From positions 5,184,001 through 5,248,000 of the forward strand of contig CAWAIF010000003.1 of the NCBI GenBank assembly GCA_963782055.1: 64,000 nucleotides of DNA, read 5' to 3'. The translations under genes and the position numbers were made by a program. Source of the stretch: an uncultured delta proteobacterium. Lineage in GTDB: Bacteria; Myxococcota_A; Polyangia; Polyangiales; Polyangiaceae. This document shows positions 15,293 through 64,000 of this stretch, in pieces (position 1 is the first letter of the stretch; each line of letters starts with the position of its first letter). The notes under the pieces are model-generated. The model had not been told where the DNA came from, searched no databases, and saw nothing but the letters and a program-made list of their open reading frames with translations.

Positions 15293-15374
15293 AGGAAATG
15301 CTAGCGCGGTCGGGCGCGAAAGTTTGCGAAATCCATGGGGCCGTCCGGTCTCACTGGAAGGACGGACCAGGGTG
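15288..15374 (+). repeat. 99-bp unit with 12-bp core deletion (copy 3)
   Basis: ..GAAATCCAT|GGGGCCGTCC..; the CTTATGCGAA(A/G)T core is missing. Confidence 0.92.
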
Positions 15375-15790
15375 GCGAGGTCGACGGCGTCATCGACCAG
15401 ACGATGCCGTCCGGATCGACCCCTTCGTAGCTGCCGCCAGGCTCGGGCGCCGCCGTCGCGAGATCGACGACGCCGTTCGCGTCGGCGTCGAACGTCGCGC
15501 TCGCGCCCCAACCCGTGAAGCGCGCGGTGACGGTGATCTGGGCGACCGGATCGAGACCGGTGACGCGGACGTCGAGCGCGTTCGCCCAGAGCATGCGCGT
15601 CACCGCGACGGGCGTCGTGCCCGAGACGTCGAAGAAGGTGACGGCCGGCGACGGCGGCGTCCCGGCGTCGGGGCTGCCCGCGTCCGGCGCGTCGGGCGCG
15701 GACCCGCCGCACGCGAGCGCGGCGAGCGCGACGAGCGCGACGAGCGCGACGACCGGCGGAAAACGAGGCGGAGGCGGAAGCGCATCCTCG
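15375..15790 (-). pseudogene. Acyl-CoA thioesterase/BAAT N-terminal-domain lipoprotein, 3'-truncated at the repeat
   Basis: LDVRVTGLDP..ASATFDADANGVVDLATAAPEPGGSYEGVDPDGIVWSM runs directly into the repeat; no hydrolase domain follows. Confidence 0.7.
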
Positions 15791-16162
15791 CGCTGCAAAC
15801 AAGTTTCGTGCCGCCAGCGATGCCTGGCGCTTCGCGCGGCCACGCCTCGGACCGACAGTTTGCTAACGGATCGCACGTCACCGGCGAGGCGACGCTCTCG
15901 CACTGCGCGGTGATCGAGTAGGAGTCAGGAGGGCGTCGTTCGCGGTGCGCTCGTGATAGGTGGGCGCGACCGCGCGCAGGACGTCCGTCACGTCGGCGCG
16001 CGTCGCCAGGAGCCGCCGAAGCGCGAGCCTCCGCACACGGTCGTCCGCGCGCTGGTACCAGGTGACGAAGCTCTTTTCGACGATACGACGAACCACGTTC
16101 TTCACGCGCGAAAGCTGGCACGCCCGCGCGGATCGCGGACGTTACATCGCGTTACGCGGCCG

Positions 16163-17779
16163 TCAGAGCCCGGTGACCTTGCCGTCGCGCGCGATGCGGA
16201 AGGCCTTGACGCCCGCGTTGCTGTTGATGGTCTCCACAAAGAGCACGGCCGCGTCTCGACGCGCCACCAGCTCGAAGTCGTCTTGGATGACGCTCGACAT
16301 GAACGGCTCGCCGCCGCTCGTGGTGTCGTCGTAGATCGGGCGGTCTTCCGTCTTGTCGATGTCGCCCGGCTTCGCGACCACGTACCTCACGCCGCGACGG
16401 CTCGACCGCCACACGACGACGACGGCGTCGCCGAGGCCGACCGCTCGCACGTCCGAAGGCGCGCGCGGTCGCGCCGGCTCGGCGAGACGCGAGAATGCCT
16501 TGCGCAGATCGACCGTGTCGACCGGAGCGCACCCGCGGGCCGTGCATCGCGCGACGTGAAGCGTGAGCCCGTCCGCCGATGCGTCGACCAAGCTCGTGAA
16601 GGTCACCGCATCCACGCCGCACGACGCGGCGCTGTGCCTTTCGGCGCTGCCGATCGATCGCGGAATCGTGAACGTGTGAACGGGCGAGTGCTCGTCGTCA
16701 TGAAAGAACACCACGTAGCCCGGTCCGTAGATCGTCAGCGCGTCACGCACGAAGCAGCCGGCGAAATACGACGGCTTCGGGACGACGCCGATGTCTTCGA
16801 TCCCCGACGCCGTCGTGCCGACGAAGCGCCTGGCGAACAGATGCCGGGTGCCGTCCTTGGCGTCTTCGAGCCAAACCGCGCGGTCGCCGAGGAGGGTCAC
16901 GTCGGCGTTGGCCTCGGTGGTCCACTTGGCGTCGACGAGCGGCCCGTTCCCGCGGGACGCCGCATACGAGAACGTGGAGTCGCTGCCGGGGTTGCTCGAT
17001 TGTCGCGAGAGCACGAGCACGCTGCCGTCGCTCTCGCCAAACGCGGTGCACGCGCGACCCGTGCAGAACGGACGGGCGTCGTCCGCGCGGTGGACGGAGT
17101 CGCCGGACGAGTGCCAATCTTGTTGCCCCGTCGGCGCGACGAGAAGCGGCGCTCCGTCGGCGCTGCCGGCGAGGACCGACTTCGGGACGAGCGCACCCGG
17201 ACGGCACGCGATCTTCCCGATGGGCGCGCGCGACTCGCACAACGTGGTGCCGCCGAGGATGAAGTGGAGGTCCGCGCCCGGCACGGGATCGAAGCTCGCG
17301 CCGATCAAGCTCGCACGAAGAGCGAGCGGTGTCGTGCGCTCGTCCGCGACGTCCGCATAGGGAGGCGCGGCCGGTACGTCGTCAGGAGGCGGGCGCGTGC
17401 TCGGGCGCACGCCGAAATACGCGTCGAACGCGTAGGGCGAGCTCTCCACCGTGTCGACGTCGATGACGGGCGACGGTGCCTGCAGGTCGATGCCTTCGAG
17501 CGCCTCGTCGACCTCCTCGTAGTCGCGAACGTACTTCTCGCATCGCGCAGGCCAGCCCTTGGGCGGATGGCCGAGCATGATGCGATGAAGCCGAGCCGAT
17601 GCTTCCTCCTTCGGTAGAAGCGGCGCGCCGAACAGGCATTTGTGCACCGACGCCAGCGATGCAGCGGCGCGGCGAACCCGGTAAACCCGCGTGGCGTAGG
17701 TGACGGCGAAATAGGCCGCGACGCACCCCGCGGCGAGCCCGCCGAGCTTGACCCATCTTCGGCCGTTCACGGTGGGCAC
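16163..17779 (-). CDS. Hypothetical membrane-anchored protein (538 aa)
   Basis: Long ORF with N-terminal TM segment; start abuts left end of repeat copy 4. Confidence 0.65.
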   Translation of the reverse strand: MPTVNGRRWVKLGGLAAGCVAAYFAVTYATRVYRVRRAAASLASVHKCLFGAPLLPKEEASARLHRIMLGHPPKGWPARCEKYVRDYEEVDEALEGIDLQAPSPVIDVDTVESSPYAFDAYFGVRPSTRPPPDDVPAAPPYADVADERTTPLALRASLIGASFDPVPGADLHFILGGTTLCESRAPIGKIACRPGALVPKSVLAGSADGAPLLVAPTGQQDWHSSGDSVHRADDARPFCTGRACTAFGESDGSVLVLSRQSSNPGSDSTFSYAASRGNGPLVDAKWTTEANADVTLLGDRAVWLEDAKDGTRHLFARRFVGTTASGIEDIGVVPKPSYFAGCFVRDALTIYGPGYVVFFHDDEHSPVHTFTIPRSIGSAERHSAASCGVDAVTFTSLVDASADGLTLHVARCTARGCAPVDTVDLRKAFSRLAEPARPRAPSDVRAVGLGDAVVVVWRSSRRGVRYVVAKPGDIDKTEDRPIYDDTTSGGEPFMSSVIQDDFELVARRDAAVLFVETINSNAGVKAFRIARDGKVTGL

Positions 17780-17828
17780 GTAGGAAATCCTAGCGCGGTC
17801 GGGCGCGAAAGTTTACGAAATCCATCTT
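17779..17828 (+). repeat. 99-bp unit left half (copy 4, split by module 1)
   Basis: CGTAGGAAATCCTAGCGCGGTCGGGCGCGAAAGTTTACGAAATCCATCTT. Confidence 0.92.
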
Positions 17829-18006
17829 GGACGAAGCCGCTGCGCGGCAGCGTGGCTCCGCATCAAGCTCGCTCGCGACCCGGGAGCCCCGCGAGCCGTG
17901 TGCGCGCTGACGAGCCCGCCTCGTAGCCCTCGCGTGCCGTGATGCGGGCGATCCTGCGGCGCGCGCCGCCCGCTCGTGGGCGCGCGCGGAGCCGAAGGAG
18001 GCCGCG

Positions 18007-18852
18007 ATGGGTGCGAAGCGAAGACTGCGGGACACGATGAGCGAGGACCTCGCGCTGCGAGGGATGAGCGCCAACACGATCGCCACGTACGTGGGGTGCG
18101 TGCGGCGGTTCGCGCAGTACCACGGGCGGTCGCCGTGCGCGCTGGGGGCGGCGGAGATCCGGACGTTCCTTTTGCACCTGGTGGCGGAGCGCAGGCTGGC
18201 GGCGCTGACGGTCAACGTGCACGCGGCCGCGCTGAGGTTTCTCTACGAGGTGACGCTGGAGCGGCCGGAGGCGACGCTGGGGATGGCGCGCATGCGGGTG
18301 CCGATGCACGTGCCGGTGGTGCTGACGAGCGCGGAGGTGGCGCGGCTGCTCGCGTCGCTCACGAGCCACAAGCACCGGGCCCTGGTGATGCTCGCCTACG
18401 GGGCGGGGCTGCGCGTGAGCGAGGTGTGCAAGCTCCGGGTGGACGACATCGATCCGAAGCGGATGCTCCTGCACGTGCGGCACACCAAGCGCGGGCGTGA
18501 GCGCTACGTGATGCTCAGCGCGAGGCTGCTGGCGACGCTGCGCGCGTACTGGAAGGCGTCACGACCCGCAGGACCGCAACTGTTTCCGGGGCGCGTGCCC
18601 GGGACGCTCCTCACGCGCGCGGCCGTCCACCGGGCGATCCTCAAGGCGGCGCGGCGCGCGGGCATCACCCGGCGCGTGTCGCCGCACACGCTGCGCCACA
18701 GCTTCGCCACGCACCTGCTCGACGCAGGGACCGACCTTCGCACGTTGCAGGTCTTGCTCGGGCACGCGTCGCTCAGGAGCACGATGGCCTACCTGCACGT
18801 GAGCACCGCCCGCGTGCAGTCGATTCAGAGCCCCCTCGACGCGCTGCCCTGA
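18007..18852 (+). CDS. Tyrosine recombinase/integrase with N-terminal SAM-like domain
   Basis: GLRVSE (R), TKRG (K), HTLRHSFATHLL (HxxR), LLGH, MAY (Y). Confidence 0.95.
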   Translation: MGAKRRLRDTMSEDLALRGMSANTIATYVGCVRRFAQYHGRSPCALGAAEIRTFLLHLVAERRLAALTVNVHAAALRFLYEVTLERPEATLGMARMRVPMHVPVVLTSAEVARLLASLTSHKHRALVMLAYGAGLRVSEVCKLRVDDIDPKRMLLHVRHTKRGRERYVMLSARLLATLRAYWKASRPAGPQLFPGRVPGTLLTRAAVHRAILKAARRAGITRRVSPHTLRHSFATHLLDAGTDLRTLQVLLGHASLRSTMAYLHVSTARVQSIQSPLDALP

Positions 18853-18858
18853 GCCCCG

Positions 18859-19815
18859 ATGCACCCGTCGTGTGCGCCCGCGCGCACGCGCGCGGCGCCC
18901 ATCGAGCTCGCGGACGTGGTGCGCGCCCACGGCGAGGCCTTCGCCGGCGGCCGCGTGCTGCGTCCCGAGGAGCGGTCGGCGCTGCGGGCGATCGAGCGAT
19001 GCCGGACCGCCGCGCTGGGCGGACATCTGGACGTGTGCACCGCGTGCGGGCTCGAGCGACCGTCGTACAACTCGTGCCGCAACCGGCACTGTCCCAAGTG
19101 CCAGTCGCTCGCGCAGGCGCGGTGGGTCGCCACGCGGCTCGAGCGCATTCTGCCCGTGCACTACTTCCACGTCGTCTTCACGCTCCCCGCCGAGCTGCGC
19201 GCCGTCGCGCGGCGCTCGCGCGCGCGGGTCTTCGACATGCTCTTCGCGAGCGCGGCCGACACGCTGGCCACCCTCGCGCGGGATCCGAAGTGGCTCGGCG
19301 CCGAGCTCGGCGTCACGATGGTCCTGCACACCTGGACGCGCGCGCTGCTCTTCCACCCCCACGTGCACGCCATCGTCACCGGCGGCGGACTCACCGGCGA
19401 CGCCGCGCGCTGGGTGCGCGCGCGCCGTCGCTTCCTCTTCCCCGTGCGCGTGATGGGCGTCTCGATGGGCGAGCGCGGCGTCACCTTCCGCACCAGAGAC
19501 GGCAAGTCGGTCACCGTCCCGGCCGAGGAGCTGCTCGCGCGCTTCGTCCAGCACGTGCTGCCGCGCGGCTTCGTCAAGATCCGCCACTACGGCCTGCACT
19601 CCGCCAGCCACGCCACCACGCGCCTCGAGACCGCACGCCGCAGACTGGGTCCGCACGCGCCCGCTGCGCGACCGGAGCGCCGTGCCGTCGCCGCCGACCT
19701 GCTGCTGCGAATCGCGGGCATCGACCTGCGCCGCTGCCCCGCTTGCCACACGCCTGCCCTCGTGCGCACCGCGCTGCCCGAGCCCCGAGCTCGCGCCCCG
19801 CCGAGGGCCGCATGA
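18859..19815 (+). pseudogene. IS91-family transposase with in-frame 201-bp deletion removing the catalytic YxxxY
   Basis: Zn-binding CTAC..SCRNRHCPKCQ and HUH HPHVH retained; YLGRY seen in 55420-56577 absent. Confidence 0.9.
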
Positions 19816-20142
19816 TCTCCCCGCGTCGTGCTCCACTGCGCTCGCTCCACGAGTGCGGCCCAGGCCCCTGTCCATCCGCGCCACCAAAAACCGCCCTCCG
19901 AGCACGCACGGCTGCCCGCTGCGCGCTCCGGGACGCCCGCGTCGAGCGCCGTCCCGCCGCCCGCTCGGCACCTCGCGCACCCGCACACGTGACCCACACG
20001 CCGCCAACTTCCCCATAGGGCTCCGAGGCCACCGCCTCGCCGCTGCCGCGCACCGGCTTCGTCCAACCGTCGATTTCGCGACCGCGCACCCGCGCCACGC
20101 GACCGCCGCCGCGACCCGGCGCGCTCACGCAATCGACTCTTA

Positions 20143-20190
20143 CTTATGCGAAATGGCCGTCCGGTCTCACTGGAAGGACGGACCAGGGTG
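20143..20190 (+). repeat. 99-bp unit right half (copy 4)
   Basis: CTTATGCGAAATGGCCGTCCGGTCTCACTGGAAGGACGGACCAGGGTG. Confidence 0.92.
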
Positions 20191-22936: not shown

Positions 22937-23449
22937 GTGACGGAGTACAGCGCGGCCTTCAAGGCCAACATGGTGAAGAAGCTGATTGTGCCCGGGGGCC
23001 CGACGGCGTCGGTGCTCTCGATTCGATCGGGAGTCTCGCAACCAACATTGTCCCGGTGGCTTCGGGATGCGAAAGAGGAGGGCATGTCCCACCGCAATCC
23101 CTCCGCGAGAGTCCCCCGTCGTCCCAGTGAATGGAAGCCCGAGGAGAAGCTCCGAGTCCTCGCGCAGGCTGACGGCCTCGCGGGTGACGCGCTCGGGGAG
23201 CTTCTGCGTCGGGAGGGACTTCACGAGGCCGACCTCGCCGGGTGGCGGCGTGCGGCACTCGGGGCTCTGGGGCCGAGCTCGAAGACGACGAGCTCCGCGG
23301 AGGCGAAGCGGGTGCGGGAGCTCGAGCGGGAGCTTTTGCGCAAGGACAAGGCGCTGGCGGAGACCGCCGCGCTGCTCGTTCTGAAAAAAAAAGTCCAGGA
23401 GTACTGGGGGGACGAGGACGACAGCACGAAGAAGGAGACCGACAAGTGA
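22937..23449 (+). CDS. IS3 transposase OrfA
   Basis: HTH (GVSQPTLSRW); RELERELLRKDKALAETAALLVLKKK. Confidence 0.88.
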   Translation: MTEYSAAFKANMVKKLIVPGGPTASVLSIRSGVSQPTLSRWLRDAKEEGMSHRNPSARVPRRPSEWKPEEKLRVLAQADGLAGDALGELLRREGLHEADLAGWRRAALGALGPSSKTTSSAEAKRVRELERELLRKDKALAETAALLVLKKKVQEYWGDEDDSTKKETDK

Positions 23450-28701: not shown

Positions 28702-28789
28702 ATCGGCATAGGGGCCCCGGGTTTCCCCGGGGACCCCTGCCACACCACCGGACAGGCGGGTCCGCATCCGGCGGTTCGGAGAGTTGAGG

Positions 28790-29249
28790 TCACGTGTCGA
28801 GCCGGGGAAGCCCCAGCTCGTCGAAGAGCTTGTTCGGCAGAGCCACGCTGAGGACGCGCATTCCCGAGGTTCGCCACCAGCGCGTCGTATTTGCTGCCGC
28901 GCGGCGAGCGTCGACGGGAGGGATCCCCCGTCGGCGCAGTTCTCGGAAGACGGTGACTCCTCGCACCCACTGCTTCAACTGCAGTGCGCGGAGTCGGTGC
29001 CGGATCCAAGAGTCCAGCTCGCGAAAGAGCGTGCGGAGCTCGACAAGCTGGAAGTAGTTCTTCCAGCCTGGCAAGTACCCTCGCAGATCTCGGCAGACCT
29101 GGGCCAGGCTCCGACCGCGCATGCGGCTCGTCATGTGCCGCACGCGGTCCTTCATCGTGTCGAGGGCCTTGCGCGCGATCGTGCAGCGGACCTCGTTCTT
29201 CGACGACAACCAAAAGGTGTAGCCGAGGAACTTCCGGTCTTGCACGGGT
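28790..29249 (-). pseudogene. ltrA: Intron RT/maturase, C-terminal part (RT7 and domain X)
   Basis: PVQDRKFLGYTF..GWKNYF..LDSWIRHRLR; in frame with the N-part after IS removal; no En domain. Confidence 0.9.
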
Positions 29250-29259
29250 GCCACCGCGC

Positions 29260-30704
29260 CATGCCCGATCTCTTAAGCACCGATCGCCCCAAGTTTGAGG
29301 GCGATTCGTTTCCTGGAGCGTGAAGGTTGTCGTTCGCGTGCCAGAGCGACGAGTGCCGCGCCCACGGTGGTCACGACGGCAGTCCACGCGGCGGTGCTCA
29401 GGGAGACGAGGGCGTCGACCAGGTCCCGCGCGTAGGCGCGCACGACGTGCAACGTCGCCAGGGGGCGCAGTTGCTCGAGAGGGACGTCGCGCGCGAGTGC
29501 AGCCTGGATCCTGACCGAGCGCACGAGCGCGTGGGCGAGCATCGCGCCGTAGGTGAGCGCCTTGATCGCGTGGGGATCGGCGGTGAAGGAGCGGCCGAGG
29601 TCGGCGGTCTGCTTCAGCTCGCGAAAGAGCAGCTCGATCAGCCAGCGGAGTCGGTAGGTCTGGATGATCTGCCGTGGCGAGAGCACGCTGCGCGGCACGG
29701 TGGTCAGGTACCAGCGGATGACGGTCGACTTGTGCGCGAGTCCCACGAGCCGCAATGCGACGGTGTCCTTGCCCTTGCCCCACGTCACGTCGAGGTCGAA
29801 GATCGTCCCGCGCTTGCGCGACACGCTCTGCAGGTAGTAGCCAAGCGACCAGTTGTGGAGCGGGGTGTGGCCGTTCTCCGAGATGTGCGCGGTCACGCGT
29901 ACCTTCGCCGTGGTCTTGAGGCGCATCAGCACGTGCGCGCCGGCAGCCTTCGCCTGGGTGAACAGAGCGCGCTCGAAAAAGCCGAGGTCGAAGAGGTAGA
30001 GCACCCCGCGCGTGAAGCTCGGGACCAGCTTCCGCCACAGCGGCGTCTCCGACGCGGTCTCCGCGTCGGAGACGCCGTGCTCGAGCAGGCCGGTCTTGAT
30101 GCTGTAGCCCATCACCCACTTGGTGCCGGCCTTGCCCTTGGTGCATCCCGGCAGCAGCTCGCGCCCGCGCGGTGGCACGCGCTGCCCCGTACCGTCGTAG
30201 ACCCGCACGTCCTCGAAGCGGGCGAGCGGCCCGCTCAGCTCCAGGCCCGCCGCCTTCGTCACCGACGCCACGAGGTGCTCGAGCGCCGCGCGGAAGAACG
30301 CCGCCGCCGACTCCTGCTTGAACCGCTTCTGGAACGGGCACGGGCGCATGAAGCCGAAGCGCCTCACGAAGATCGCCCGCAGCGACTCGAACGACAGCGT
30401 CTGGCCCGCGAGGAACCCCTCGACGACCGTGAGCACCAGGCGGAACGCGGTGGCGCGCCGCTGCCGCGGGTTGTAGCCGGTGCGGCCCCGAAGCTCGTCG
30501 ATGACCGCCGGCGTGAAGGTCCGCTGCAGCTGCTCCTCCACCGCGCTCGCCTCTTCGCTCGGGTCTGGACGGCTGCTCGTGGCTCGGGTAGCTCTCGTCG
30601 TCATCGGGCGTCCTCTCCTTGTTGGTGTCGCAACCGAACAACGAGAAAGGCGCCCGATTTATTTCCATCATTCCGCCACGTTATGTCCAAAGGATCTGGC
30701 CATG
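29260..30704 (-). mobile_element. IS4-family insertion sequence, 1445 bp
   Basis: 10-bp TSD GCCACCGCGC (29250-29259, 30705-30714); imperfect IRs CATGCCCGATCTCTT / CATGGCCAGATCCTT. Confidence 0.9.
29273..30604 (-). CDS. IS4-family DDE transposase
   Basis: VYDGT, LFDLGFF, YRLRWLIELLFRELKQ (YREK motif). Confidence 0.92.
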   Translation of the reverse strand: MTTRATRATSSRPDPSEEASAVEEQLQRTFTPAVIDELRGRTGYNPRQRRATAFRLVLTVVEGFLAGQTLSFESLRAIFVRRFGFMRPCPFQKRFKQESAAAFFRAALEHLVASVTKAAGLELSGPLARFEDVRVYDGTGQRVPPRGRELLPGCTKGKAGTKWVMGYSIKTGLLEHGVSDAETASETPLWRKLVPSFTRGVLYLFDLGFFERALFTQAKAAGAHVLMRLKTTAKVRVTAHISENGHTPLHNWSLGYYLQSVSRKRGTIFDLDVTWGKGKDTVALRLVGLAHKSTVIRWYLTTVPRSVLSPRQIIQTYRLRWLIELLFRELKQTADLGRSFTADPHAIKALTYGAMLAHALVRSVRIQAALARDVPLEQLRPLATLHVVRAYARDLVDALVSLSTAAWTAVVTTVGAALVALARERQPSRSRKRIALKLGAIGA

Positions 30705-31618
30705 GCCACCGCGCTCTTCGACTCGTTGATCTGGAGATGGAGCTTCGCGTAGAGACGCCGCAGCGCCTGCATGACCCGCTCGCCCGCTCGCCGTGACCGC
30801 ACGTAAACGTTGCTGTCATCGGCGTAGCGCACGAAGGCGTGTCCGCGCTTCTCCAGCTCCTTGTCGACTTCGTCGAGGAGCACGTTCGCAAGCATTGGCG
30901 AGAGAGGACCGCCCTGGGGCGTTCCCTCGTCGCGATCCATCACGACGCCGTTCGCCATGATGCCGGCGTTCAGGTAGCGACGGATGAGTCCCAGCACGCG
31001 CCGATCCTCGATTCGTTTGGCCAGTCTCCCCATGAGCACGTCGTGGTTGACGCGGTCGAAGAAAGCTTCGAGATCCACGTCGACCACCCATCGTCTTCCT
31101 TGCTGCACATACCGCTTCGCCTCGCGCACGGCGTCGTGCGCGCTGCGCCGCGGCCGGAAGCCGTGGCTGTGCTCCGAGAAGGTCGGATCGAATCGAGGCT
31201 GCAGGACCTGCAAGAGGGCCTGCTGGATGAGTCGGTCGAGCACCGTCGGGATGCCGAGCTGTCGCTCGCCGCCGCCGCTCTTCGGAATCACGTGCCGTCG
31301 CACCGGCTGCGGCTGGTACGTCCCCGCGAGCAGCTGCTCGCGGAGGGACGGCCAGTGCACGCGAAGGTGGTCCGGTAGCTCCTCCACCGTCATCCCGTCG
31401 ATGCCGGGACTGCCCTTGTTCCGCTTCACTCGCTTCAGCGCGGCCTGAAGGTTCTTGCGCGTGAGCGCCGCCTCCATCAGCCCGCTCGTTCCTGAGCGCT
31501 CGGTTCCATGGGTCGCCGAATCCGCTTCCACGCGTCGGTCGTCGCTCGGGGCTTCACCATCCGCGGCGGTCGGCGTCTCGCTCTTGGACTTCTGTGGCTG
31601 CGCGTTCTCGAGATCCAT
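30705..31618 (-). pseudogene. ltrA: Intron RT/maturase, N-terminal part (RT0-RT6)
   Basis: GSPGIDG, LGIPTVLDRLIQQA, GTPQGGPLSPMLAN, RYADD. Confidence 0.92.
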
Positions 31619-32226
31619 GGGCGTTTCGCCCTCCTCTCCGTTTGGCCCTTCGCAGCGATAGAGACTTCCGGGGTTCGGGGGGGGTCCCTGCCCGGCTCCT
31701 TCGCCGCTACTACGGCCTCTGCTGACTTCTCGCTCCGTCCGACGTTGTCGCCGGCCGTCGCCCTTTCAGGCGCGAGGCGAGATCTCCCCAGGTAAGAGCA
31801 TCAACCTTCACCGCACGACCGCCGGATATACGCCGCCGAGCTTCGGTCACGAGAGCTTCGCGGGTTCCAGTCCGCTCGCCCTGCTCGGCCACGCCTCCGA
31901 TCCGATTTCTGTACGTCGGCCCGCGGCTTCGCTCCCCACTTCCTCCAGACGGTCCCTCACGGTTCCGCCCTTGTGGTTCGCTTCTGTCATTGTGACCAAT
32001 TTCAGGAAGGACTTTCACCTCCGGGTTGATGCCCATGCTGGGCGCACTGGACGAAGCCGCTGCGCGGCAGCGTGGCTCCGCATCAAGCTCGCTCGCGACC
32101 CGGGAGCCCCGCGAGCCGTGTGCGCGCTGACGAGCCCGCCTCGTAGCCCTCGCGTGCCGTGATGCGGGCGATCCTGCGGCGCGCGCCGCCCGCTCGTGGG
32201 CGCGCGCGGAGCCGAAGGAGGCCGCG

Positions 32227-33072
32227 ATGGGTGCGAAGCGAAGACTGCGGGACACGATGAGCGAGGACCTCGCGCTGCGAGGGATGAGCGCCAACACGAT
32301 CGCCACGTACGTGGGGTGCGTGCGGCGGTTCGCGCAGTACCACGGGCGGTCGCCGTGCGCGCTGGGGGCGGCGGAGATCCGGACGTTCCTCTTGCACCTG
32401 GTGGCGGAGCGCAGGCTGGCGGCGCTGACGGTCAACGTGCACGCGGCCGCGCTGAGGTTTCTCTACGAGGTGACGCTGGAGCGGCCGGAGGCGACGCTGG
32501 GGATGGCGCGCATGCGGGTGCCGATGCACGTGCCGGTGGTGCTGACGAGCGCGGAGGTGGCGCGGCTGCTCGCGTCGCTCACGAGCCACAAGCACCGGGC
32601 CCTGGTGATGCTCGCCTACGGGGCGGGGCTGCGCGTGAGCGAGGTGTGCAAGCTCCGGGTGGACGACATCGATCCGAAGCGGATGCTCCTGCACGTGCGG
32701 CACACCAAGCGCGGGCGTGAGCGCTACGTGATGCTCAGCGCGAGGCTGCTGGCGACGCTGCGCGCGTACTGGAAGGCGTCACGACCCGCAGGACCGCAGC
32801 TGTTTCCGGGGCGCGTGCCCGGGACGCTCCTCACGCGCGCGGCCGTCCACCGGGCGATCCTCAAGGCGGCGCGGCGCGCGGGCATCACCCGGCGCGTGTC
32901 GCCGCACACGCTGCGCCACAGCTTCGCCACGCACCTGCTCGACGCAGGGACCGACCTTCGCACGTTGCAGGTCTTGCTCGGGCACGCGTCGCTCAGGAGC
33001 ACGATGGCCTACCTGCACGTGAGCACCGCCCGCGTGCAGTCGATTCAGAGCCCCCTCGACGCGCTGCCCTGA
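32227..33072 (+). CDS. Tyrosine recombinase/integrase
   Basis: Same 281-aa protein as 18007-18852. Confidence 0.95.
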   Translation: MGAKRRLRDTMSEDLALRGMSANTIATYVGCVRRFAQYHGRSPCALGAAEIRTFLLHLVAERRLAALTVNVHAAALRFLYEVTLERPEATLGMARMRVPMHVPVVLTSAEVARLLASLTSHKHRALVMLAYGAGLRVSEVCKLRVDDIDPKRMLLHVRHTKRGRERYVMLSARLLATLRAYWKASRPAGPQLFPGRVPGTLLTRAAVHRAILKAARRAGITRRVSPHTLRHSFATHLLDAGTDLRTLQVLLGHASLRSTMAYLHVSTARVQSIQSPLDALP

Positions 33073-33078
33073 GCCCCG

Positions 33079-34038
33079 ATGCACCCGTCGTGTGCGCCCG
33101 CGCGCACGCGCGCGGCGCCCATCGAGCTCGCGGACGTGGTGCGCGCCCACGGCGAGGCCTTCGCCGGCGGCCGCGTGCTGCGTCCCGAGGAGCGGTCGGC
33201 GCTGCGGGCGATCGAGCGATGCCGGACCGCCGCGCTGGGCGGACATCTGGACGTGTGCACCGCGTGCGGGCTCGAGCGACCGTCGTACAACTCGTGCCGC
33301 AACCGGCACTGTCCCAAGTGCCAGTCGCTCGCGCAGGCGCGGTGGGTCGCCACGCGGCTCGAGCGCATTCTGCCCGTGCACTACTTCCACGTCGTCTTCA
33401 CGCTCCCCGCCGAGCTGCGCGCCGTCGCGCGGCGCTCGCGCGCGCGGGTCTTCGACATGCTCTTCGCGAGCGCGGCCGACACGCTGGCCACCCTCGCGCG
33501 GGATCCGAAGTGGCTCGGCGCCGAGCTCGGCGTCACGATGGTCCTGCACACCTGGACGCGCGCGCTGCTCTTCCACCCCCACGTGCACGCCATCGTCACC
33601 GGCGGCGGACTCACCGGCGACGCCGCGCGCTGGGTGCGCGCGCGCCGTCGCTTCCTCTTCCCCGTGCGCGTGATGGGCGTCTCGATGGGCGAGCGCGGCG
33701 TCACCTTCCGCACCAGAGACGGCAAGTCGGTCACCGTCCCGGCCGAGGAGCTGCTCGCGCGCTTCGTCCAGCACGTGCTGCCGCGCGGCTTCGTCAAGAT
33801 CCGCCACTACGGCCTGCACTCCGCCAGCCACGCCACCACGCGCCTCGAGACCGCACGCCGCAGACTGGGTCCGCACGCGGCGCCCGCTGCGCGACCGGTG
33901 CGCCGTGCCGTCGCCGCCGACCTGCTGCTGCGAATCGCGGGCATCGACCTGCGCCGCTGCCCCGCTTGCCACACGCCTGCCCTCGTGCGCACCGCGCTGC
34001 CGGAGCCCCGAGCTCGCGACCCGCCGGGGGCCGCATGA
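33079..34038 (+). pseudogene. IS91-family transposase with the same 201-bp deletion
   Basis: VRVMG|VSMGERG junction, YLGRY missing. Confidence 0.9.
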
Positions 34039-34365
34039 TCTCCCCGCGTCGTGTTCCACTGCGCTCGCTCCACGAGTGCGGCGCAGGCCCCTGTCCATCC
34101 GCGCCACGAAAACCCGCCCTCCGAGCACGCACGGCTGCCCGCTGCGCGCTCCGGGACGCCCGCGTCGAGCGCCGTCCCGCCGCCCGCTCCGCACCTCGCG
34201 CACCCGCACGCGTGACCCACACGCCGCCAACTTCCCCATAGGGCTCCGAGGCCACCGCCTCGCCGCTGCCGCGCACCGGCTTCGTCCAACCGTCGATTTC
34301 GCGACCGCGCACCCGCGCCACGCGACCGCCGCCGCGACCCGGCGCGCTCACGCAATCGACTCTTA

Positions 34366-34415
34366 CTTATGCGAAGTGGGGCCGTCCGGTGTCACTGGAA
34401 GGACGGACCAGGGTG
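34366..34415 (+). repeat. 99-bp unit right half (copy 5)
   Basis: CTTATGCGAAGTGGGGCCGTCCGGTGTCACTGGAAGGACGGACCAGGGTG. Confidence 0.92.
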
Positions 34416-37391: not shown

Positions 37392-37443
37392 CGCATAGGA
37401 AATGCTAGCGCGGTCGGGCGCGAAAGTTTACGAAATCCATCTT
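37392..37443 (+). repeat. 99-bp unit left half (copy 6)
   Basis: CGCATAGGAAATGCTAGCG..CCATCTT. Confidence 0.92.
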
Positions 37444-37621
37444 GGACGAAGCCGCTGCGCGGCAGCGTGGCTCCGCATCAAGCTCGCTCGCGACCCGGGA
37501 GCCCCGCGAGCCGTGTGCGCGCTGACGAGCCCGCCTCGTAGCCCTCGCGTGCCGTGATGCGGGCGATCCTGCGGCGCGCGCCGCCCGCTCGTGGGCGCGC
37601 GCGGAGCCGAAGGAGGCCGCG

Positions 37622-38467
37622 ATGGGTGCGAAGCGAAGACTGCGGGACACGATGAGCGAGGACCTCGCGCTGCGAGGGATGAGCGCCAACACGATCGCCA
37701 CGTACGTGGGGTGCGTGCGGCGGTTCGCGCAGTACCACGGGCGGTCGCCGTGCGCGCTGGGGGCGGCGGAGATCCGGACGTTCCTCTTGCACCTGGTGGC
37801 GGAGCGCAGGCTGGCGGCGCTGACGGTCAACGTGCACGCGGCCGCGCTGAGGTTTCTCTACGAGGTGACGCTGGAGCGGCCGGAGGCGACGCTGGGGATG
37901 GCGCGCATGCGGGTGCCGATGCACGTGCCGGTGGTGCTGACGAGCGCGGAGGTGGCGCGGCTGCTCGCGTCGCTCACGAGCCACAAGCACCGGGCCCTGG
38001 TGATGCTCGCCTACGGGGCGGGGCTGCGCGTGAGCGAGGTGTGCAAGCTCCGGGTGGACGACATCGATCCGAAGCGGATGCTCCTGCACGTGCGGCACAC
38101 CAAGCGCGGGCGTGAGCGCTACGTGATGCTCAGCGCGAGGCTGCTGGCGACGCTGCGCGCGTACTGGAAGGCGTCACGACCCGCAGGACCGCAGCTGTTT
38201 CCGGGGCGCGTGCCCGGGACGCTCCTCACGCGCGCGGCCGTCCACCGGGCGATCCTCAAGGCGGCGCGGCGCGCGGGCATCACCCGGCGCGTGTCGCCGC
38301 ACACGCTGCGCCACAGCTTCGCCACGCACCTGCTCGACGCAGGGACCGACCTTCGCACGTTGCAGGTCTTGCTCGGGCACGCGTCGCTCAGGAGCACGAT
38401 GGCCTACCTGCACGTGAGCACCGCCCGCGTGCAGTCGATTCAGAGCCCCCTCGACGCGCTGCCCTGA
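37622..38467 (+). CDS. Tyrosine recombinase/integrase
   Basis: Same 281-aa protein. Confidence 0.95.
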   Translation: MGAKRRLRDTMSEDLALRGMSANTIATYVGCVRRFAQYHGRSPCALGAAEIRTFLLHLVAERRLAALTVNVHAAALRFLYEVTLERPEATLGMARMRVPMHVPVVLTSAEVARLLASLTSHKHRALVMLAYGAGLRVSEVCKLRVDDIDPKRMLLHVRHTKRGRERYVMLSARLLATLRAYWKASRPAGPQLFPGRVPGTLLTRAAVHRAILKAARRAGITRRVSPHTLRHSFATHLLDAGTDLRTLQVLLGHASLRSTMAYLHVSTARVQSIQSPLDALP

Positions 38468-38473
38468 GCCCCG

Positions 38474-39433
38474 ATGCACCCGTCGTGTGCGCCCGCGCGC
38501 ACGCGCGCGGCGCCCATCGAGCTCGCGGACGTGGTGCGCGCCCACGGCGAGGCCTTCGCCGGCGGCCGCGTGCTGCGTCCCGAGGAGCGGTCGGCGCTGC
38601 GGGCGATCGAGCGATGCCGGACCGCCGCGCTGGGCGGACATCTGGACGTGTGCACCGCGTGCGGGCTCGAGCGACCGTCGTACAACTCGTGCCGCAACCG
38701 GCACTGTCCCAAGTGCCAGTCGCTCGCGCAGGCGCGGTGGGTCGCCACGCGGCTCGAGCGCATTCTGCCCGTGCACTACTTCCACGTCGTCTTCACGCTC
38801 CCCGCCGAGCTGCGCGCCGTCGCGCGGCGCTCGCGCGCGCGGGTCTTCGACATGCTCTTCGCGAGCGCGGCCGACACGCTGGCCACCCTCGCGCGGGATC
38901 CGAAGTGGCTCGGCGCCGAGCTCGGCGTCACGATGGTCCTGCACACCTGGACGCGCGCGCTGCTCTTCCACCCCCACGTGCACGCCATCGTCACCGGCGG
39001 CGGACTCACCGGCGACGCCGCGCGCTGGGTGCGCGCGCGCCGTCGCTTCCTCTTCCCCGTGCGCGTGATGGGCGTCTCGATGGGCGAGCGCGGCGTCACC
39101 TTCCGCACCAGAGACGGCAAGTCGGTCACCGTCCCGGCCGAGGAGCTGCTCGCGCGCTTCGTCCAGCACGTGCTGCCGCGCGGCTTCGTCAAGATCCGCC
39201 ACTACGGCCTGCACTCCGCCAGCCACGCCACCACGCGCCTCGAGACCGCACGCCGCAGACTGGGTCCGCACGCGGCGCCCGCTGCGCGACCGGTGCGCCG
39301 TGCCGACGCCGCCGACCTGCTGCTGCGAATCGCGGGCATCGACCTGCGCCGCTGCCCCGCTTGCCACACGCCTGCCCTCGTGCGCACCGCGCTGCCGGAG
39401 CCCCGAGCTCGCGACCCGCCGGGGGCCGCATGA
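38474..39433 (+). pseudogene. IS91-family transposase with the same 201-bp deletion
   Basis: YLGRY missing. Confidence 0.9.
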
Positions 39434-39767
39434 TCTCCCCGCGTCGTGTTCCACTGCGCTCGCTCCACGAGTGCGGCGCAGGCCCCTGTCCATCCGCGCC
39501 ACGAAAACCCGCCCTCCGAGCACGCACGGCTGCCCGCTGCGCGCTCCGGGACGCCCGCGTCGAGCGCCGTCCCGCCGCCCGCTCCGCACCTCGCGCACCC
39601 GCACGCGTGACCCACACGCCGCCAACTTCCCCATAGGGCTCCGGGCTCCGAGGCCACCGCCTCGCCGCTGCCGCGCACCGGCTTCGTCCAACCGTCGATT
39701 TCGCGACCGCGCACCCGCGCCACGCGACCGCCGCCGCGACCCGGCGCGCTCACGCAATCGACTCTTA

Positions 39768-39817
39768 CTTATGCGAAGTGGGGCCGTCCGGTGTCACTGG
39801 AAGGACGGACCAGGGTG
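39768..39817 (+). repeat. 99-bp unit right half (copy 6)
   Basis: CTTATGCGAAGTGGGG..CAGGGTG. Confidence 0.92.
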
Positions 39818-43621: not shown

Positions 43622-43861
43622 ATGATAGCTCAGGCGCGCTCACGGGCAAAGGGCGTCCGGTGGCCTCCGTAGGGCTCGTTAGGCTCCCAGTCGCGGTTGA
43701 CACCCGCTCCAGTCGGAGCCCACGGAAGGCTGCAGGCTCCGCCCGCACGCAGATGTCGGCAGATGTTCACTGCTGTCGCACCGGGCGGCCTCGCGAAGGG
43801 GGTGCGTGGTGGCGGGGCGGGCCACTCGAACGCTCGAACGCCTGAACTTCCGGCACGTTGG

Positions 43862-43960
43862 CGCATAGGAAATCCTAGCGCGGTCGGGCGCGAAAGTTTA
43901 CGGAATCCATCTTATGCGAAGTGGGGCCGTCCGGTGTCACTGGAAGGACGGACCAGGGTG
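43862..43960 (+). repeat. 99-bp unit, intact empty copy (copy 7)
   Basis: Left and right halves joined through a single CTT (43911-43913). Confidence 0.95.
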
Positions 43961-46906: not shown

Positions 46907-46908
46907 GT

Positions 46909-48273: not shown

Positions 48274-48412
48274 CTCCTCGGCAAACGGGGACGGAACGCT
48301 GCCCGACCCTCTACCAGCTGCAACCCTACCGCCGCAAAGGACGCCCATCTCGTGGACGCACGCGCGGTGGGGCCCACGGCCGCCCGCGCGAGTTCGATTC
48401 CCGTCGCCATGT

Positions 48413-51648: not shown

Positions 51649-51662
51649 GGCGTCGCTGTCCT

Positions 51663-54336: not shown

Positions 54337-54388
54337 CGCATAGGAAATCCTAGCGCGGTCGGGCGCGAAAGTTTACGGAATCCATCTT
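54337..54388 (+). repeat. 99-bp unit left half (copy 8)
   Basis: CGCATAGGAAATCCTAGCG..CCATCTT. Confidence 0.92.
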
Positions 54389-54566
54389 GGACGAAGCCGC
54401 TGCGCGGCAGCGTGGCTCCGCATCAAGCTCGCTCGCGACCCGGGAGCCCCGCGAGCCGTGTGCGCGCTGACGAGCCCGCCTCGTAGCCCTCGCGTGCCGT
54501 GATGCGGGCGATCCTGCGGCGCGCGCCGCCCGCTCGTGGGCGCGCGCGGAGCCGAAGGAGGCCGCG

Positions 54567-55412
54567 ATGGGTGCGAAGCGAAGACTGCGGGACACGATGA
54601 GCGAGGACCTCGCGCTGCGAGGGATGAGCGCCAACACGATCGCCACGTACGTGGGGTGCGTGCGGCGGTTCGCGCAGTACCACGGGCGGTCGCCGTGCGC
54701 GCTGGGGGCGGCGGAGATCCGGACGTTCCTTTTGCACCTGGTGGCGGAGCGCAGGCTGGCGGCGCTGACGGTCAACGTGCACGCGGCCGCGCTGAGGTTT
54801 CTCTACGAGGTGACGCTGGAGCGGCCGGAGGCGACGCTGGGGATGGCGCGCATGCGGGTGCCGATGCACGTGCCGGTGGTGCTGACGAGCGCGGAGGTGG
54901 CGCGGCTGCTCGCGTCGCTCACGAGCCACAAGCACCGGGCCCTGGTGATGCTCGCCTACGGGGCGGGGCTGCGCGTGAGCGAGGTGTGCAAGCTCCGGGT
55001 GGACGACATCGATCCGAAGCGGATGCTCCTGCACGTGCGGCACACCAAGCGCGGGCGTGAGCGCTACGTGATGCTCAGCGCGAGGCTGCTGGCGACGCTG
55101 CGCGCGTACTGGAAGGCGTCACGACCCGCAGGACCGCAGCTGTTTCCGGGGCGCGTGCCCGGGACGCTCCTCACGCGCGCGGCCGTCCACCGGGCGATCC
55201 TCAAGGCGGCGCGGCGCGCGGGCATCACCCGGCGCGTGTCGCCGCACACGCTGCGCCACAGCTTCGCCACGCACCTGCTCGACGCAGGGACCGACCTTCG
55301 CACGTTGCAGGTCTTGCTCGGGCACGCGTCGCTCAGGAGCACGATGGCCTACCTGCACGTGAGCACCGCCCGCGTGCAGTCGATTCAGAGCCCCCTCGAC
55401 GCGCTGCCCTGA
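54567..55412 (+). CDS. Tyrosine recombinase/integrase
   Basis: Same 281-aa protein. Confidence 0.95.
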   Translation: MGAKRRLRDTMSEDLALRGMSANTIATYVGCVRRFAQYHGRSPCALGAAEIRTFLLHLVAERRLAALTVNVHAAALRFLYEVTLERPEATLGMARMRVPMHVPVVLTSAEVARLLASLTSHKHRALVMLAYGAGLRVSEVCKLRVDDIDPKRMLLHVRHTKRGRERYVMLSARLLATLRAYWKASRPAGPQLFPGRVPGTLLTRAAVHRAILKAARRAGITRRVSPHTLRHSFATHLLDAGTDLRTLQVLLGHASLRSTMAYLHVSTARVQSIQSPLDALP

Positions 55413-55419
55413 GCCCCCG

Positions 55420-56577
55420 ATGCACCCGTCGTGTGCGCCCGCGCGCACGTGCGCGGCGCCCATCGAGCTCGCGGACGTGGTGCGCGCCCACGGCGAGGCC
55501 TTCGCCGGCGGCCGCGTGCTGCGTCCCGAGGAGCGGTCGGCGCTGCGGGCAATCGAGCGATGCCGGACCGCCGCGCTGGGCGGACATCTGGACGTGTGCA
55601 CCGCGTGCGGGCTCGAGCGACCGTCGTACAACTCGTGCCGCAACCGGCACTGTCCCAAGTGCCAGTCGCTCGCGCAGGCGCGGTGGGTCGCCACGCGGCT
55701 CGAGCGCATTCTGCCCGTGCACTACTTCCACGTCGTCTTCACGCTCCCCGCCGAGCTGCGCGCCGTCGCGCGGCGCTCGCGCGCGAGGGTCTTCGACATG
55801 CTCTTCGCGAGCGCGGCCGACACGCTGGCCACCCTCGCGCGGGATCCGAAGTGGCTCGGCGCCGAGCTCGGCGTCACGATGGTCCTGCACACCTGGACGC
55901 GCGCGCTGCTCTTCCACCCCCACGTGCACGCCATCGTCACCGGCGGCGGACTCACCGGCGACGCCGCGCGCTGGGTGCGCGCGCGCCGTCGCTTCCTCTT
56001 CCCCGTGCGCGTGATGGGCGCCCTCTTTCGCGGCAAGATGCTCGCCGCTCTCGAGCGCGCCCACGCGCGCGGCCTCGTCGACCTGGGCGGCGTCGACCTG
56101 CTGGCGCTCCGACGCAAGGCCTGGGTCGTCTACGCCAAGCGACCCTTCGGCGGCCCCGCTCAGGTCATCCGCTACCTCGGTCGCTACACTCACCGCGTCG
56201 GCATCTCCAACCACCGCTTCGTCTCGATGGGCGAGCGCGGCGTCACCTTCCGCACCAGAGACGGCAAGTCGGTCACCGTCCCGGCCGAGGAGCTGCTCGC
56301 GCGCTTCGTCCAGCACGTGCTGCCGCGCGGCTTCGTCAAGATCCGCCACTACGGCCTGCACTCCGCCAGCCACGCCACCACGCGCCTCGAGACCGCACGC
56401 CGCAGACTGGATCCGCACGCGCCCGCTGCGCGACCGGAGCGCCGTGCCGTCGCCGCCGACCTGCTGCTGCGAATCGCGGGCATCGACCTGCGCCGCTGCC
56501 CCGCTTGCCACACGCCTGCCCTCGTGCGCACCGCGCTGCCCGAGCCCCGAGCTCGCGCCCCGCCGAGGGCCGCATGA
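55420..56577 (+). CDS. IS91-family (HUH/Y2) transposase, intact
   Basis: Zn-binding domain, HPHVH, RYLGRYTHRVGISNHR, QHVLPRGFVKIRHYG. Confidence 0.95.
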   Translation: MHPSCAPARTCAAPIELADVVRAHGEAFAGGRVLRPEERSALRAIERCRTAALGGHLDVCTACGLERPSYNSCRNRHCPKCQSLAQARWVATRLERILPVHYFHVVFTLPAELRAVARRSRARVFDMLFASAADTLATLARDPKWLGAELGVTMVLHTWTRALLFHPHVHAIVTGGGLTGDAARWVRARRRFLFPVRVMGALFRGKMLAALERAHARGLVDLGGVDLLALRRKAWVVYAKRPFGGPAQVIRYLGRYTHRVGISNHRFVSMGERGVTFRTRDGKSVTVPAEELLARFVQHVLPRGFVKIRHYGLHSASHATTRLETARRRLDPHAPAARPERRAVAADLLLRIAGIDLRRCPACHTPALVRTALPEPRARAPPRAA

Positions 56578-56904
56578 TCTCCCCGCGTCGTGCTCCACTG
56601 CGTTCGCTCCACGAGTGCGGCCCAGGCCCCGGTCCATCCGCGCCACCAAAAACCGCCCCCCGAGCACGCACGGCTGCCCGCTGCGCGCTCCGGGACGCCC
56701 GCGTCGAGCGCCGTCCCGCCGCCCGCTCCGCACCTCGCGCACCCGCACGCGTGACCCACACGCCGCCAACTTCCCCATAGGGCTCCGAGGCCACCGCCTC
56801 GCCGCTGCCGCGCACCGGCTTCGTCCAACCGTCGATTTCGCGACCGCGCACCCGCGCCACGCGACCGCCGCCGCGACCCGGCGCGCTCACGCAATCGACT
56901 CTTA

Positions 56905-56954
56905 CTTATGCGAAGTGGGGCCGTCCGGTGTCACTGGAAGGACGGACCAGGGTG
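56905..56954 (+). repeat. 99-bp unit right half (copy 8)
   Basis: CTTATGCGAAGTGGGG..CAGGGTG. Confidence 0.92.
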
Positions 56955-59658: not shown

Positions 59659-59670
59659 ACGATTAGTCGC

Positions 59671-60243: not shown

Positions 60244-60322
60244 CGGACGGACTGAAACGGGTCCACAGCGAGACGGAGATCGTGAGAAATAGCGCATGCG
60301 GCATGCTTGTTGAACAACGCTC

Positions 60323-63988: not shown

Positions 63989-64000
63989 GGCGCCCATCGC

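What the first reader, a model, noticed from the sequence alone, without database searches (positions are those of the whole stretch)
17827..20150. The int-tnp module has attC-like cassette architecture
Seen: the module starts TTGGACGAAGCCGCTGCGCGGCAGCG (17827-17852), matching 25/26 the reverse complement of 20041-20066, which lies ~80 bp inside the right end. That arm ends GTCCAAC (an RYYYAAC), followed by GTCGATT (20069-75) ... AATCGAC (20131-37) and then TCTTA-CTT. Circularising at CTT gives GTCCAAC..GTCGATT..loop..AATCGAC..CTTGGAC, a long imperfect hairpin. Known: integron cassettes show this split symmetry (R'' RYYYAAC at the 3' end, partner R' bases at the 5' start, core GTT). Inference: the module excises and integrates as a folded single-strand site, with a CTT rather than GTT core.
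Basis: partly seen in the sequence, partly recalled or inferred. Interest (0 to 1): 0.85.

Follow-up and report, generated by a model that had tools for sequence, protein, structure and literature searches.

The report
IS91-integrase element homing to dif-like repeats
This is a damaged copy of a known two-gene jumping element whose joined ends fold into a hairpin shaped like an integron cassette site, and which in this bacterium lands almost only in a chromosome-resolution-like site carried on the repeated end pieces of a second jumping element.

Summary
The module 17827-20143 is an IS91-family element of the ISAzo26/ISWz1 type: a tyrosine recombinase plus a Y2 HUH transposase. This copy has lost the Y2 motif by a 201-bp deletion.

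The split symmetry is a family trait. Arms covary, mismatches favour the bottom strand (A.C 20 vs G.T 0), and head-to-tail junctions exist in relatives.

It is not an attC site. There is no extrahelical-base shift, no hit to an attC model that found 21 held-out sites, the recombinase lacks the IntI insert, and the genome has no IntI. 'CTT' is not a core: the base before TT varies.

14 of 15 left ends sit at the arm/spacer border of a dif-like 11-6-11 site inside a 100-bp repeat, the origin end of an ISCR-type element arrayed between captured DNA. A sister element in another species does the same.

Best model (inferred, 0.6): the HUH enzyme copies out a bottom-strand circle, and the element's own recombinase integrates its folded junction, as in CTXphi or attC x attI. 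It is a candidate I2-less, EHB-less relative of the integron cassette system.

The parts
17827..20143 (+). Whole element, Y2-deleted copy (2317 bp; full-length copy 54387-56905)
   Evidence: Junction comparison of all genomic copies; blast of both copies
17827..17852 (+). Left arm (R'-like); its first 11 nt match the XerC-like arm of the target at 7 of 11; contains a small GC hairpin
   Evidence: family consensus
18007..18852 (+). Tyrosine recombinase, 281 aa, intact R-K-H-R-H-Y, lacking the integron-integrase insert
   Evidence: PF00589+PF13495; IntI4 residues 179-244 correspond to query 180-204
18859..19815 (+). IS91-type Zn-finger/Y2 HUH transposase with a 201-bp in-frame deletion at 19458/19459 that removes the YxxxY motif (318 aa vs 385 aa)
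   Evidence: PF14319+PF04986; the same deletion is in 4 genomic copies
20041..20067 (+). Subterminal right arm (R''-like), inverted partner of the left arm
20069..20137 (+). Inner stem-loop without an extrahelical-base register shift
20138..20143 (+). Terminal spacer; unpaired in the folded junction; crossover inferred between 20143 and 20144
   Evidence: copies whose flanking base differs
17776..17826 (+). Left half of the 100-bp target repeat (ISCR origin end); XerD-like arm 17810-17820 and 6-bp spacer 17821-17826
20144..20190 (+). Right half of the target repeat; XerC-like arm 20144-20154, then a short hairpin
43861..43960 (+). Empty copy of the target repeat (another at 60568-60667; decayed ones near 2500, 12371, 15288)
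32048..34366 (+). Second copy (Y2-deleted); its left junction is split by a group II intron
37442..39768 (+). Third copy (Y2-deleted), in a target repeat
54387..56905 (+). Fourth copy, full-length, transposase 55420-56577 with HxH and YxxxY
28702..32047 (-). Group II intron inserted within the TT of the second copy's left junction (itself interrupted by another element)
   Evidence: Rfam RF02001/RF01998; ends; genes

Best explanation
A two-enzyme mobile element of the IS91 family (ISAzo26/ISWz1 type). Step 1 (inferred): the Y2 HUH transposase nicks the bottom strand at the right end and copies it out as a single-strand circle. Step 2 (supported by comparative sequence): the joined ends fold; the left arm pairs with the subterminal right arm, a 4-5-nt asymmetric loop follows, then the inner stem, so the fold mimics a double-stranded recombinase site. 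Step 3 (inferred): the element's own tyrosine recombinase exchanges one strand pair between this fold and a double-stranded 11-6-11 site, cutting after the AA of the arm on the bottom strand, and replication resolves the junction, as for attC x attI or CTXphi attP(+) x dif. Shown here: in this genome the target is the dif-like site inside the 100-bp origin-end repeat of an ISCR-type element, so copies pile up in that element's repeat arrays. The copy in the finding cannot make an active Y2 enzyme, so it most likely moved with help in trans.
For: Gene pair: recombinase upstream in 95 of the 102 loci with room (109 examined). Catalytic residues are invariant in 70 of 70 recombinases and 76 of 76 transposases. 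Arm pairing is 90% with the own partner vs 80% with swapped partners, 0 of 2000 swaps as high (29 elements). Bottom strand: more stable in 28 of 29; top-strand mismatches A.C vs G.T are 20:0 in arms and 48:7 in inner stems; IS91 uses a bottom-strand single-strand circle (PMC13181058, passages). TT lies at a fixed +5 offset in 23 of 46 right ends, at most 6 of 46 at any other offset. Head-to-tail junctions occur in L038 and L084 and as 3 dimers in G349. Targets have inverted symmetry peaking at a 6-bp spacer: 3.56 of 9 across 27 elements, 4.2 in 10 copies of G351, 3.3 in 28 rows of G349. Insertion is at the arm/spacer border, where XerC cuts dif (PMC4246890, passages). In this genome 14 of 15 left ends (2 through an intron, 1 decayed) and 12 of 13 right ends lie in target half-sites. 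The unique chromosomal dif at the GC-skew maximum differs from the target site by few bases. In the sister element of G004 (recombinase 75-76% identical), 3 of 4 left junctions are clearly and 1 probably at ISCR origin-end dif-like sites.
Against: No circle or junction read was seen: none in the genome, and public contigs were too fragmentary. Family-wide target symmetry is modest: 20 of 5000 permutations as high, 80 of 5000 without the AA/TT positions. The two-integrase relative in G057 has unrelated targets (5 left, 6 right junctions). The true chromosomal dif is empty in both genomes. 7 of 102 loci lack the recombinase. One G004 right junction carries about 11 unexplained extra bases, and one right junction here has an extra T. 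Homologues are related, so counts are not independent. The arm matrix was trained on the loci it scored, and end registers were partly chosen to match the left dinucleotide. Four copies lacking Y2 occupy four different sites, which also fits a Y2-independent route.
Confidence: 0.6

Rival explanations
1. The recombinase alone excises and integrates the element as a self-contained cassette (closest to the first reader's idea). The integrated right end refolds with the target's arm during replication, and the HUH protein only amplifies the circle.
For: The target's XerC-like arm matches the left arm at 7 of 11 positions, so the integrated right end could refold. Four Y2-deleted copies sit at four sites. 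No one-ended copies with read-through flanks were evident among the genomic copies.
Against: HxH and YxxxY are invariant in 76 of 76 homologues. Intact copies in the same genome can act in trans. Filled targets are not regenerated as recognisable scars among 29 whole empty repeats (weak).
Confidence: 0.15
2. Ordinary HUH transposition. The hairpins guide transposase cleavage and joining (IS91- or IS200/605-like), and the recombinase only resolves tandem multimers.
For: IS91 has subterminal palindromes and bottom-strand circles. Tandem dimers exist and would need resolving. A 3-5-bp sequence is shared by target and element end in G349/G351. G057 targets look unspecific.
Against: The bottom-strand tetranucleotides at target and terminus are not CTTG/GTTC types. 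Targets show two-armed symmetry around a 6-bp spacer with insertion at the arm border. The junction rebuilds a recombinase-sized duplex arm.
Confidence: 0.13
3. The element exploits host XerC/XerD at dif-like sites, like CTXphi or TLCphi.
For: The target here has an intact XerC-like arm and a degenerate XerD-like arm, as described for TLCphi attP. The ISAzo26 target is also dif-like.
Against: The arm consensus is the same across many phyla and target types. The element's own recombinase is invariantly catalytic. Chromosomal dif is unoccupied.
Confidence: 0.07
4. A true integron cassette with an attC site, handled by an IntI.
For: RYYYAAC is present, the junction is 89 nt, within the 57-141 bp range, and the loop asymmetry is like that of real attC. 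An IS91-like element next to an attC in a Shewanella integron has been reported.
Against: No IntI over the cut-off in a 97%-complete genome. No extrahelical-base shift. No hit to the attC model. R' is not GTTRRRY here.
Confidence: 0.02

Closest known systems
IS91-family elements with an upstream tyrosine recombinase (ISAzo26 of Aromatoleum aromaticum EbN1; ISWz1; ISShvi3; y4qK-type)
   Same: Same gene pair and order; recombinase 48% identical to that of ISAzo26; same arm and inner-stem layout; the ISAzo26 target is also an 11-6-11 site; the recombinases group together.
   Different: Here nearly all copies sit in one target class, the dif-like site of ISCR origin-end repeats. The loop offset is +4 rather than the modal +5. 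This copy lacks the Y2 motif. That ISWz1 and ISShvi3 carry a recombinase gene is recalled from ISfinder, not from a call.
Canonical IS91 / IS801 / IS1294
   Same: Zn-finger Y2 HUH transposase, no target duplication, subterminal palindromes, bottom-strand bias.
   Different: Extra recombinase; long pairing between the two ends; two-armed target rather than a CTTG/GTTC tetranucleotide; no one-ended products evident.
Integron cassette attC with IntI
   Same: Split R''/R' symmetry, RYYYAAC, asymmetric central loop, inner stem, similar length, bottom-strand fold, crossover next to TT; closest recombinase family.
   Different: No extrahelical-base shift, no I2 insert, R' not fixed as GTT, autonomous element with an HUH gene, no IntI in the genome.
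CTXphi attP(+) and TLCphi attP (IMEX)
   Same: Rolling-circle single strand folded into a duplex mimic without extrahelical bases, recombining at the XerC-arm border of a dif-type site.
   Different: Carries its own recombinase, is not a phage, and avoids the chromosomal dif.
ISCR elements and IS801 miniature right-end derivatives (the target repeat)
   Same: The repeat is the origin-side end of a Y2 transposase element and occurs without the gene, like IS801 right-end fragments (PMC3189936, abstract only).
   Different: Fixed 100-bp unit with sharp ends, co-oriented arrays anchored at the transposase gene, and an internal dif-like site.

Membership tests
Integron attC site | RYYYAAC inverse core and GTTRRRY core | tested here: not met
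   R'' fits. R' would be CTTGGAC here and starts with A in the sister element; the base before TT varies.
Integron attC site | Bottom-strand hairpin, 57-141 bp, with asymmetric central spacer | tested here: met
   89 nt; bottom strand favoured; offset +4 vs +3/+4 in control attC.
Integron attC site | Extrahelical bases in the L box | tested here: not met
   Of 39 control candidates (both strands, partly the same sites, most from one integron), 15 passed the pairing filter and 14 showed a -1 shift. Of 29 element junctions, 25 passed; 22 showed none and 3 showed +1.
Integron attC site | Hit to an attC covariance model | tested here: not met
   A home-made model from 11 sites found 21 plus-strand sites in a held-out integron and none in the window or in three tandem-junction loci. 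The published model was not available.
Integron integrase IntI | Additional I2 domain; score above the TIGR02249 cut-off | tested here: not met
   About 40 aa shorter at the insert; 113+88 bits vs cut-off 265; separate side of the tree from IntI (quick tree only).
IS91 family, recombinase-carrying subgroup (ISAzo26 type) | Zn-finger Y2 HUH transposase preceded by a tyrosine recombinase | tested here: met
   This copy has lost YxxxY; the full copy at 54387 keeps it.
IS91 family, recombinase-carrying subgroup (ISAzo26 type) | No terminal inverted repeats and no target duplication | tested here: met
   The right arm is subterminal; only 2-3 shared bases at the junctions.
Canonical IS91/IS801/IS1294 | CTTG/GTTC-type tetranucleotide at target and terIS on the transferred strand | tested here: not met
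   The bottom strand reads ATAA/CCAA (or TAAG/CAAG if the shared bases are reassigned).
Canonical IS91/IS801/IS1294 | Single-strand circular intermediate made by the transposase | not testable with these tools
   No raw reads available; contigs uninformative.
IMEX (CTXphi/TLCphi type) | Insertion at the chromosomal dif | tested here: not met
   dif at C3:3558740 is empty; insertions are at dif-like copies.
IMEX (CTXphi/TLCphi type) | Dependence on host XerC/XerD | not testable with these tools
   Needs genetics; the element encodes its own catalytic recombinase.
ISCR-type origin end (target repeat) | Lies at the end of the element downstream of a Y2 transposase gene, with a fixed outer boundary | tested here: met
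   About 36-38 bp past the stop of three ISCR-like genes; flanks diverge at the same base. The ISCR label rests on the protein's motifs and recalled origin-end motifs; this protein was not scanned against a family library.

The most novel reading that the evidence does not exclude
This element family is the missing intermediate of integron evolution: an IntI-sister recombinase without the I2 domain that recombines an attC-shaped single-strand fold without extrahelical bases, fed by a rolling-circle enzyme. This lineage has also specialised as a parasite of a second, undescribed system, namely ISCR origin-end gene-capture arrays whose dif-like site is itself a working recombination site.
Probability: 0.3. 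Interest if true: 0.85.

Novelty: new variant of a known kind. Interest (0 to 1): 0.6.

Why it matters
The role of the recombinase in these widespread IS91-type elements is, as far as my searches show, untested. Escudero et al. call the joint origin of the IntI I2 domain and the attC extrahelical bases a chicken-and-egg paradox (PMC4792948, passages). An I2-less recombinase with an EHB-less folded site makes that directly testable with a standard single-strand delivery assay. This genome supplies a sharply defined natural target. It also shows three layers of single-strand elements (ISCR ends, this element, a group II intron) converging on one junction.

Tried and rejected
Circle evidence from public runs: 6 runs listed, no RNA holder listed. 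Four were laid; they gave fragmentary contigs and no end-to-start joint, which is uninformative. No head-to-tail junction in this genome.

Target repeat as an attC or integron array: its fold is weak (z -0.3 to -1.5), there is no IntI and no model hit. Rejected.

Loop asymmetry as a discriminator from attC: rejected, because control attC sites also give +3/+4 and +1.

'This lineage lost the G of GTT': rejected, because the sister element ends in A before TT with the same offset.

A strict dif match near ISCR ends: only 2 of 40 loci reached 16/22, one being this genome. Degenerate 11-6-11 motifs in others are by eye only.

A first local-alignment search for end symmetry was too insensitive and crashed; it was replaced by a matrix search.

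Multi-copy target sets from two plasmids and G350 had too few identical copies.

Three of four plasmid integrons gave no usable attC.

The careful tree did not finish; only the quick tree is cited, unrooted, so no order of events is claimed.

PMC3469429 (first third), PMC9345347, PMC8876359 and PMC5737581 gave nothing on this element's mechanism.

No structure or complex prediction was run.

Full report
OBSERVATION. The described features are all present: a 25/26 inverted pair at 17827-17852 and 20041-20066, GTCCAAC, the 7-bp inner stem 20069-75/20131-37, then TCTTAC and TT. Such a pair occurs 3 times in the window (element copies), never in 20 shuffles, and 0-2 times in 13 other 64-kb stretches. 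Comparing all copies puts the element at 17827-20143.

WHAT THE MODULE IS. It encodes a 281-aa tyrosine recombinase and an IS91-type Zn-finger/Y2 transposase. The window has four copies. The genome has 15 left ends and 13 right ends, counting fragments, one diverged relative and one decayed end. The copy in the finding has a 201-bp in-frame deletion removing the YxxxY motif; four copies at four sites share it. The family is known: the recombinase is 48% identical to that of ISAzo26, annotated as IS91-like. Smyshlyaev et al. place IS91-borne recombinases in the integron-like subgroup and note that they lack the IntI insert (10.1101/542381, passages). I confirm this: IntI4 residues 179-244 correspond to only 25 residues here, no IntI passes the cut-off in this genome, and a quick tree puts 28 element recombinases on one side of a branch (support 91) and 14 IntI on another (98).

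THE SYMMETRY IS A FAMILY TRAIT. Of 109 transposase loci, 95 have the recombinase upstream, 7 lack it and 7 are too short to tell. A matrix trained on these same loci finds the left arm in 58 of 66 and the right arm in 50 of 72 (wrong-strand controls 2 and 0). Of 52 distinct right ends, 40 have an inner stem beating all 50 shuffles. TT falls 5 nt beyond the symmetric position in 23 of 46 and in at most 6 at any other offset; here the offset is 4. In 29 elements with both ends, arms pair 90% with their own partner and 80% with swapped ones (0 of 2000), with two-sided changes at several positions. The bottom strand is more stable in 28 of 29. Top-strand mismatches are A.C rather than G.T by 20:0 (arms) and 48:7 (inner stems), which means G.T wobbles on the bottom strand. 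These elements are related, so the counts overstate independence. IS91 integrates a bottom-strand single-strand circle (PMC13181058, passages). The joined form exists as head-to-tail dimers in L038, L084 and three places in G349. Both enzymes keep their catalytic residues (70 of 70, 76 of 76; the transposase search patterns select for the zinc-finger motif but not for YxxxY).

IT IS NOT attC. The outline is close: length 56-116 nt against 57-141 for attC, and real attC sites are also asymmetric. But 14 of the 15 control sites that passed my filter (of 39 candidates) show the one-base shift of an extrahelical base, and 22 of 25 element junctions (of 29) show none. An attC model from 11 sites found 21 sites in a held-out integron and nothing in the window or at tandem junctions. 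The absence of extrahelical bases matches the absence of the I2 insert that reads them (PMC4792948 and PMC3053210, passages). The 'CTT core' does not hold. The base before TT is G 26, C 14, T 13, A 10 at 63 left junctions, G in one copy here, and G on the left but A on the right in the sister element. The crossover is best placed at N|TT.

THE TARGET. Element ends abut halves of a 100-bp repeat: 14 of 15 left ends (11 directly, 2 through a group II intron, 1 decayed; the exception is a rearranged end) and 12 of 13 right ends. A profile finds 67 hits: 29 whole and empty, 11 left halves with element, 11 right halves with element, 2 with intron, 14 partial. The repeat contains an 11-6-11 site nearly identical to the chromosomal dif. 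That dif is unique, lies at the GC-skew maximum (C3:3558740) and is empty; all 19 other near matches are in the repeat. The XerC-like arm is intact, the XerD-like arm degenerate (arm names by analogy, from recalled dif layout). Insertion is at the arm/spacer border, the XerC cut position (PMC4246890, passages). The repeat is the origin-side end of an ISCR-type element: three clusters (5, 26 and 17 hits, co-oriented 5/5, 21/26 and 17/17) each end at such a transposase gene, and similarity falls with distance from it (rho -0.74, n=43, profile seeded on intact copies). The anchor gene of this window's cluster lies 17 kb beyond the window. Spacers include truncated genes and pieces with copies elsewhere in the genome. 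Similar origin-end repeats follow ISCR-like genes in 5 of 23 testable loci from other genomes (a sixth hit was a gene fragment, and 13 loci were skipped for lack of room). In G004, another species of the genus, a sister element (recombinase 75-76% identical) has 4 left junctions with 3 distinct flanks. Two share an arm identical to the one here, one is followed on the right by a XerC-like arm and an ISCR transposase tail, and one is probable. Across the family, targets show weak symmetry around a 6-bp spacer (3.56 of 9 vs 1.8-2.8 at other spacings, n=27; 20 of 5000 permutations, 80 of 5000 without AA/TT). It is clear in G351 (10 copies) and ISAzo26, weaker in G349 (28 rows, including two tandem partners and two near-duplicate rows), and absent in the two-integrase variant of G057.

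MECHANISM. Shown: gene content, ends, covariation, strand bias, target identity, crossover position. Inferred: the HUH enzyme copies out the bottom strand, the junction folds, and the element's recombinase performs a single strand exchange with an 11-6-11 site, resolved by replication. This works like CTXphi attP(+) or attC x attI but belongs to neither. I give it 0.6, against recombinase-only (0.15), transposase-only with the recombinase as resolvase (0.13), host Xer (0.07) and true cassette (0.02). Why the real dif is spared is unexplained; occupancy by host Xer, selection, or a need for single-strand exposure at the ISCR origin are guesses.

WHAT IS IN PRINT. [quoted passage not shown] Circular intermediates of ISWz1-bounded regions were reported (PMC11322121, passages; PMC9751785, passages). 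IS801 right-end miniatures are known (PMC3189936, abstract). Group IIC introns target attC-like hairpins (PMC7923331, passages). Ten searches found no description of the folded junction, of the recombinase's role, or of homing to ISCR ends. The library lacks most subscription journals and the ISfinder/TnPedia pages, and I read no supplements. Earlier notes of this scan report the same junction in eight other genomes and ISCR-end arrays in four; these are leads, not independent support. A look-up combining the two found none.

VERDICT. A real, conserved folded-junction architecture in a known but mechanistically untested element family. It is attC-like in outline, not attC. What this locus adds is homing to dif-like sites in ISCR origin-end arrays, conserved between two species. 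New variant of a known kind; interest 0.6.

Noticed in passing
window 2500-60667 and G000 C3:2.72-2.74, 4.41-4.49, 5.18-5.27 Mb: Co-oriented arrays of a fixed 100-bp ISCR origin-end unit anchored at the transposase gene, younger copies nearer the gene, separating captured and often truncated DNA. One 300-bp spacer is a 98% copy of C3:6832600-6832888, one unit pair has no spacer, and the same cargo appears with different endpoints.
   Followed up: partly
L261, L264, L267, L269, L271 (also L272, L194, L200): ISCR-like genes in other genomes are followed by 2-4 direct copies of their 80-200-bp origin end, several with a dif-like 11-6-11 motif about 30 bp inside the end.
   Followed up: partly
window 28702-32047 (-); G000 C3:2272362-2274250 and 6186556-6191357: All three copies of a group II intron sit after the same arm sequence of the element. 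Two split the left junction; one joins an inverted left end to a right-end stem, probably after recombination between intron copies. Intron class not determined.
   Followed up: partly
L413 (G004:C8) right junction: About 11 extra bases between the element end and the XerC-like arm, resembling a repeated spacer. Unexplained.
   Followed up: no
L128-L133 (G057): A 3.5-kb variant with two recombinase genes, in at least six copies at unrelated targets, with variable dinucleotides at both ends.
   Followed up: partly
L023: The element is flanked by an inverted 37-bp tRNA-like sequence on both sides.
   Followed up: no
L119, L121: Homologous elements lie within REP-like tandem repeats.
   Followed up: no
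window 15301-15903 (-): An acyl-CoA thioesterase N-terminal region that runs into a decayed target repeat and looks truncated.
   Followed up: no
window 22937-24462 (+): An IS3-type element with overlapping orfA and orfB (HTH and rve domains).
   Followed up: no
window 46900-54060 (-): Lower-GC block of three to five genes that look like a type I restriction-modification system, between two target repeats (named by eye from N-termini, not scanned).
   Followed up: no
window 57463-64000: Repeated low-GC RHS/YD-repeat-like gene fragments between target repeats (by eye, not scanned).
   Followed up: no
window 7736-12355 (+): 1539-aa protein with internal duplication, Pro/Thr linkers and a C-terminal DUF4132.
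   Followed up: no
G000 C3:4411589-4411928: A 340-bp spacer between two opposed repeats is identical to part of a small contig, a possible inversion or assembly feature.
   Followed up: no
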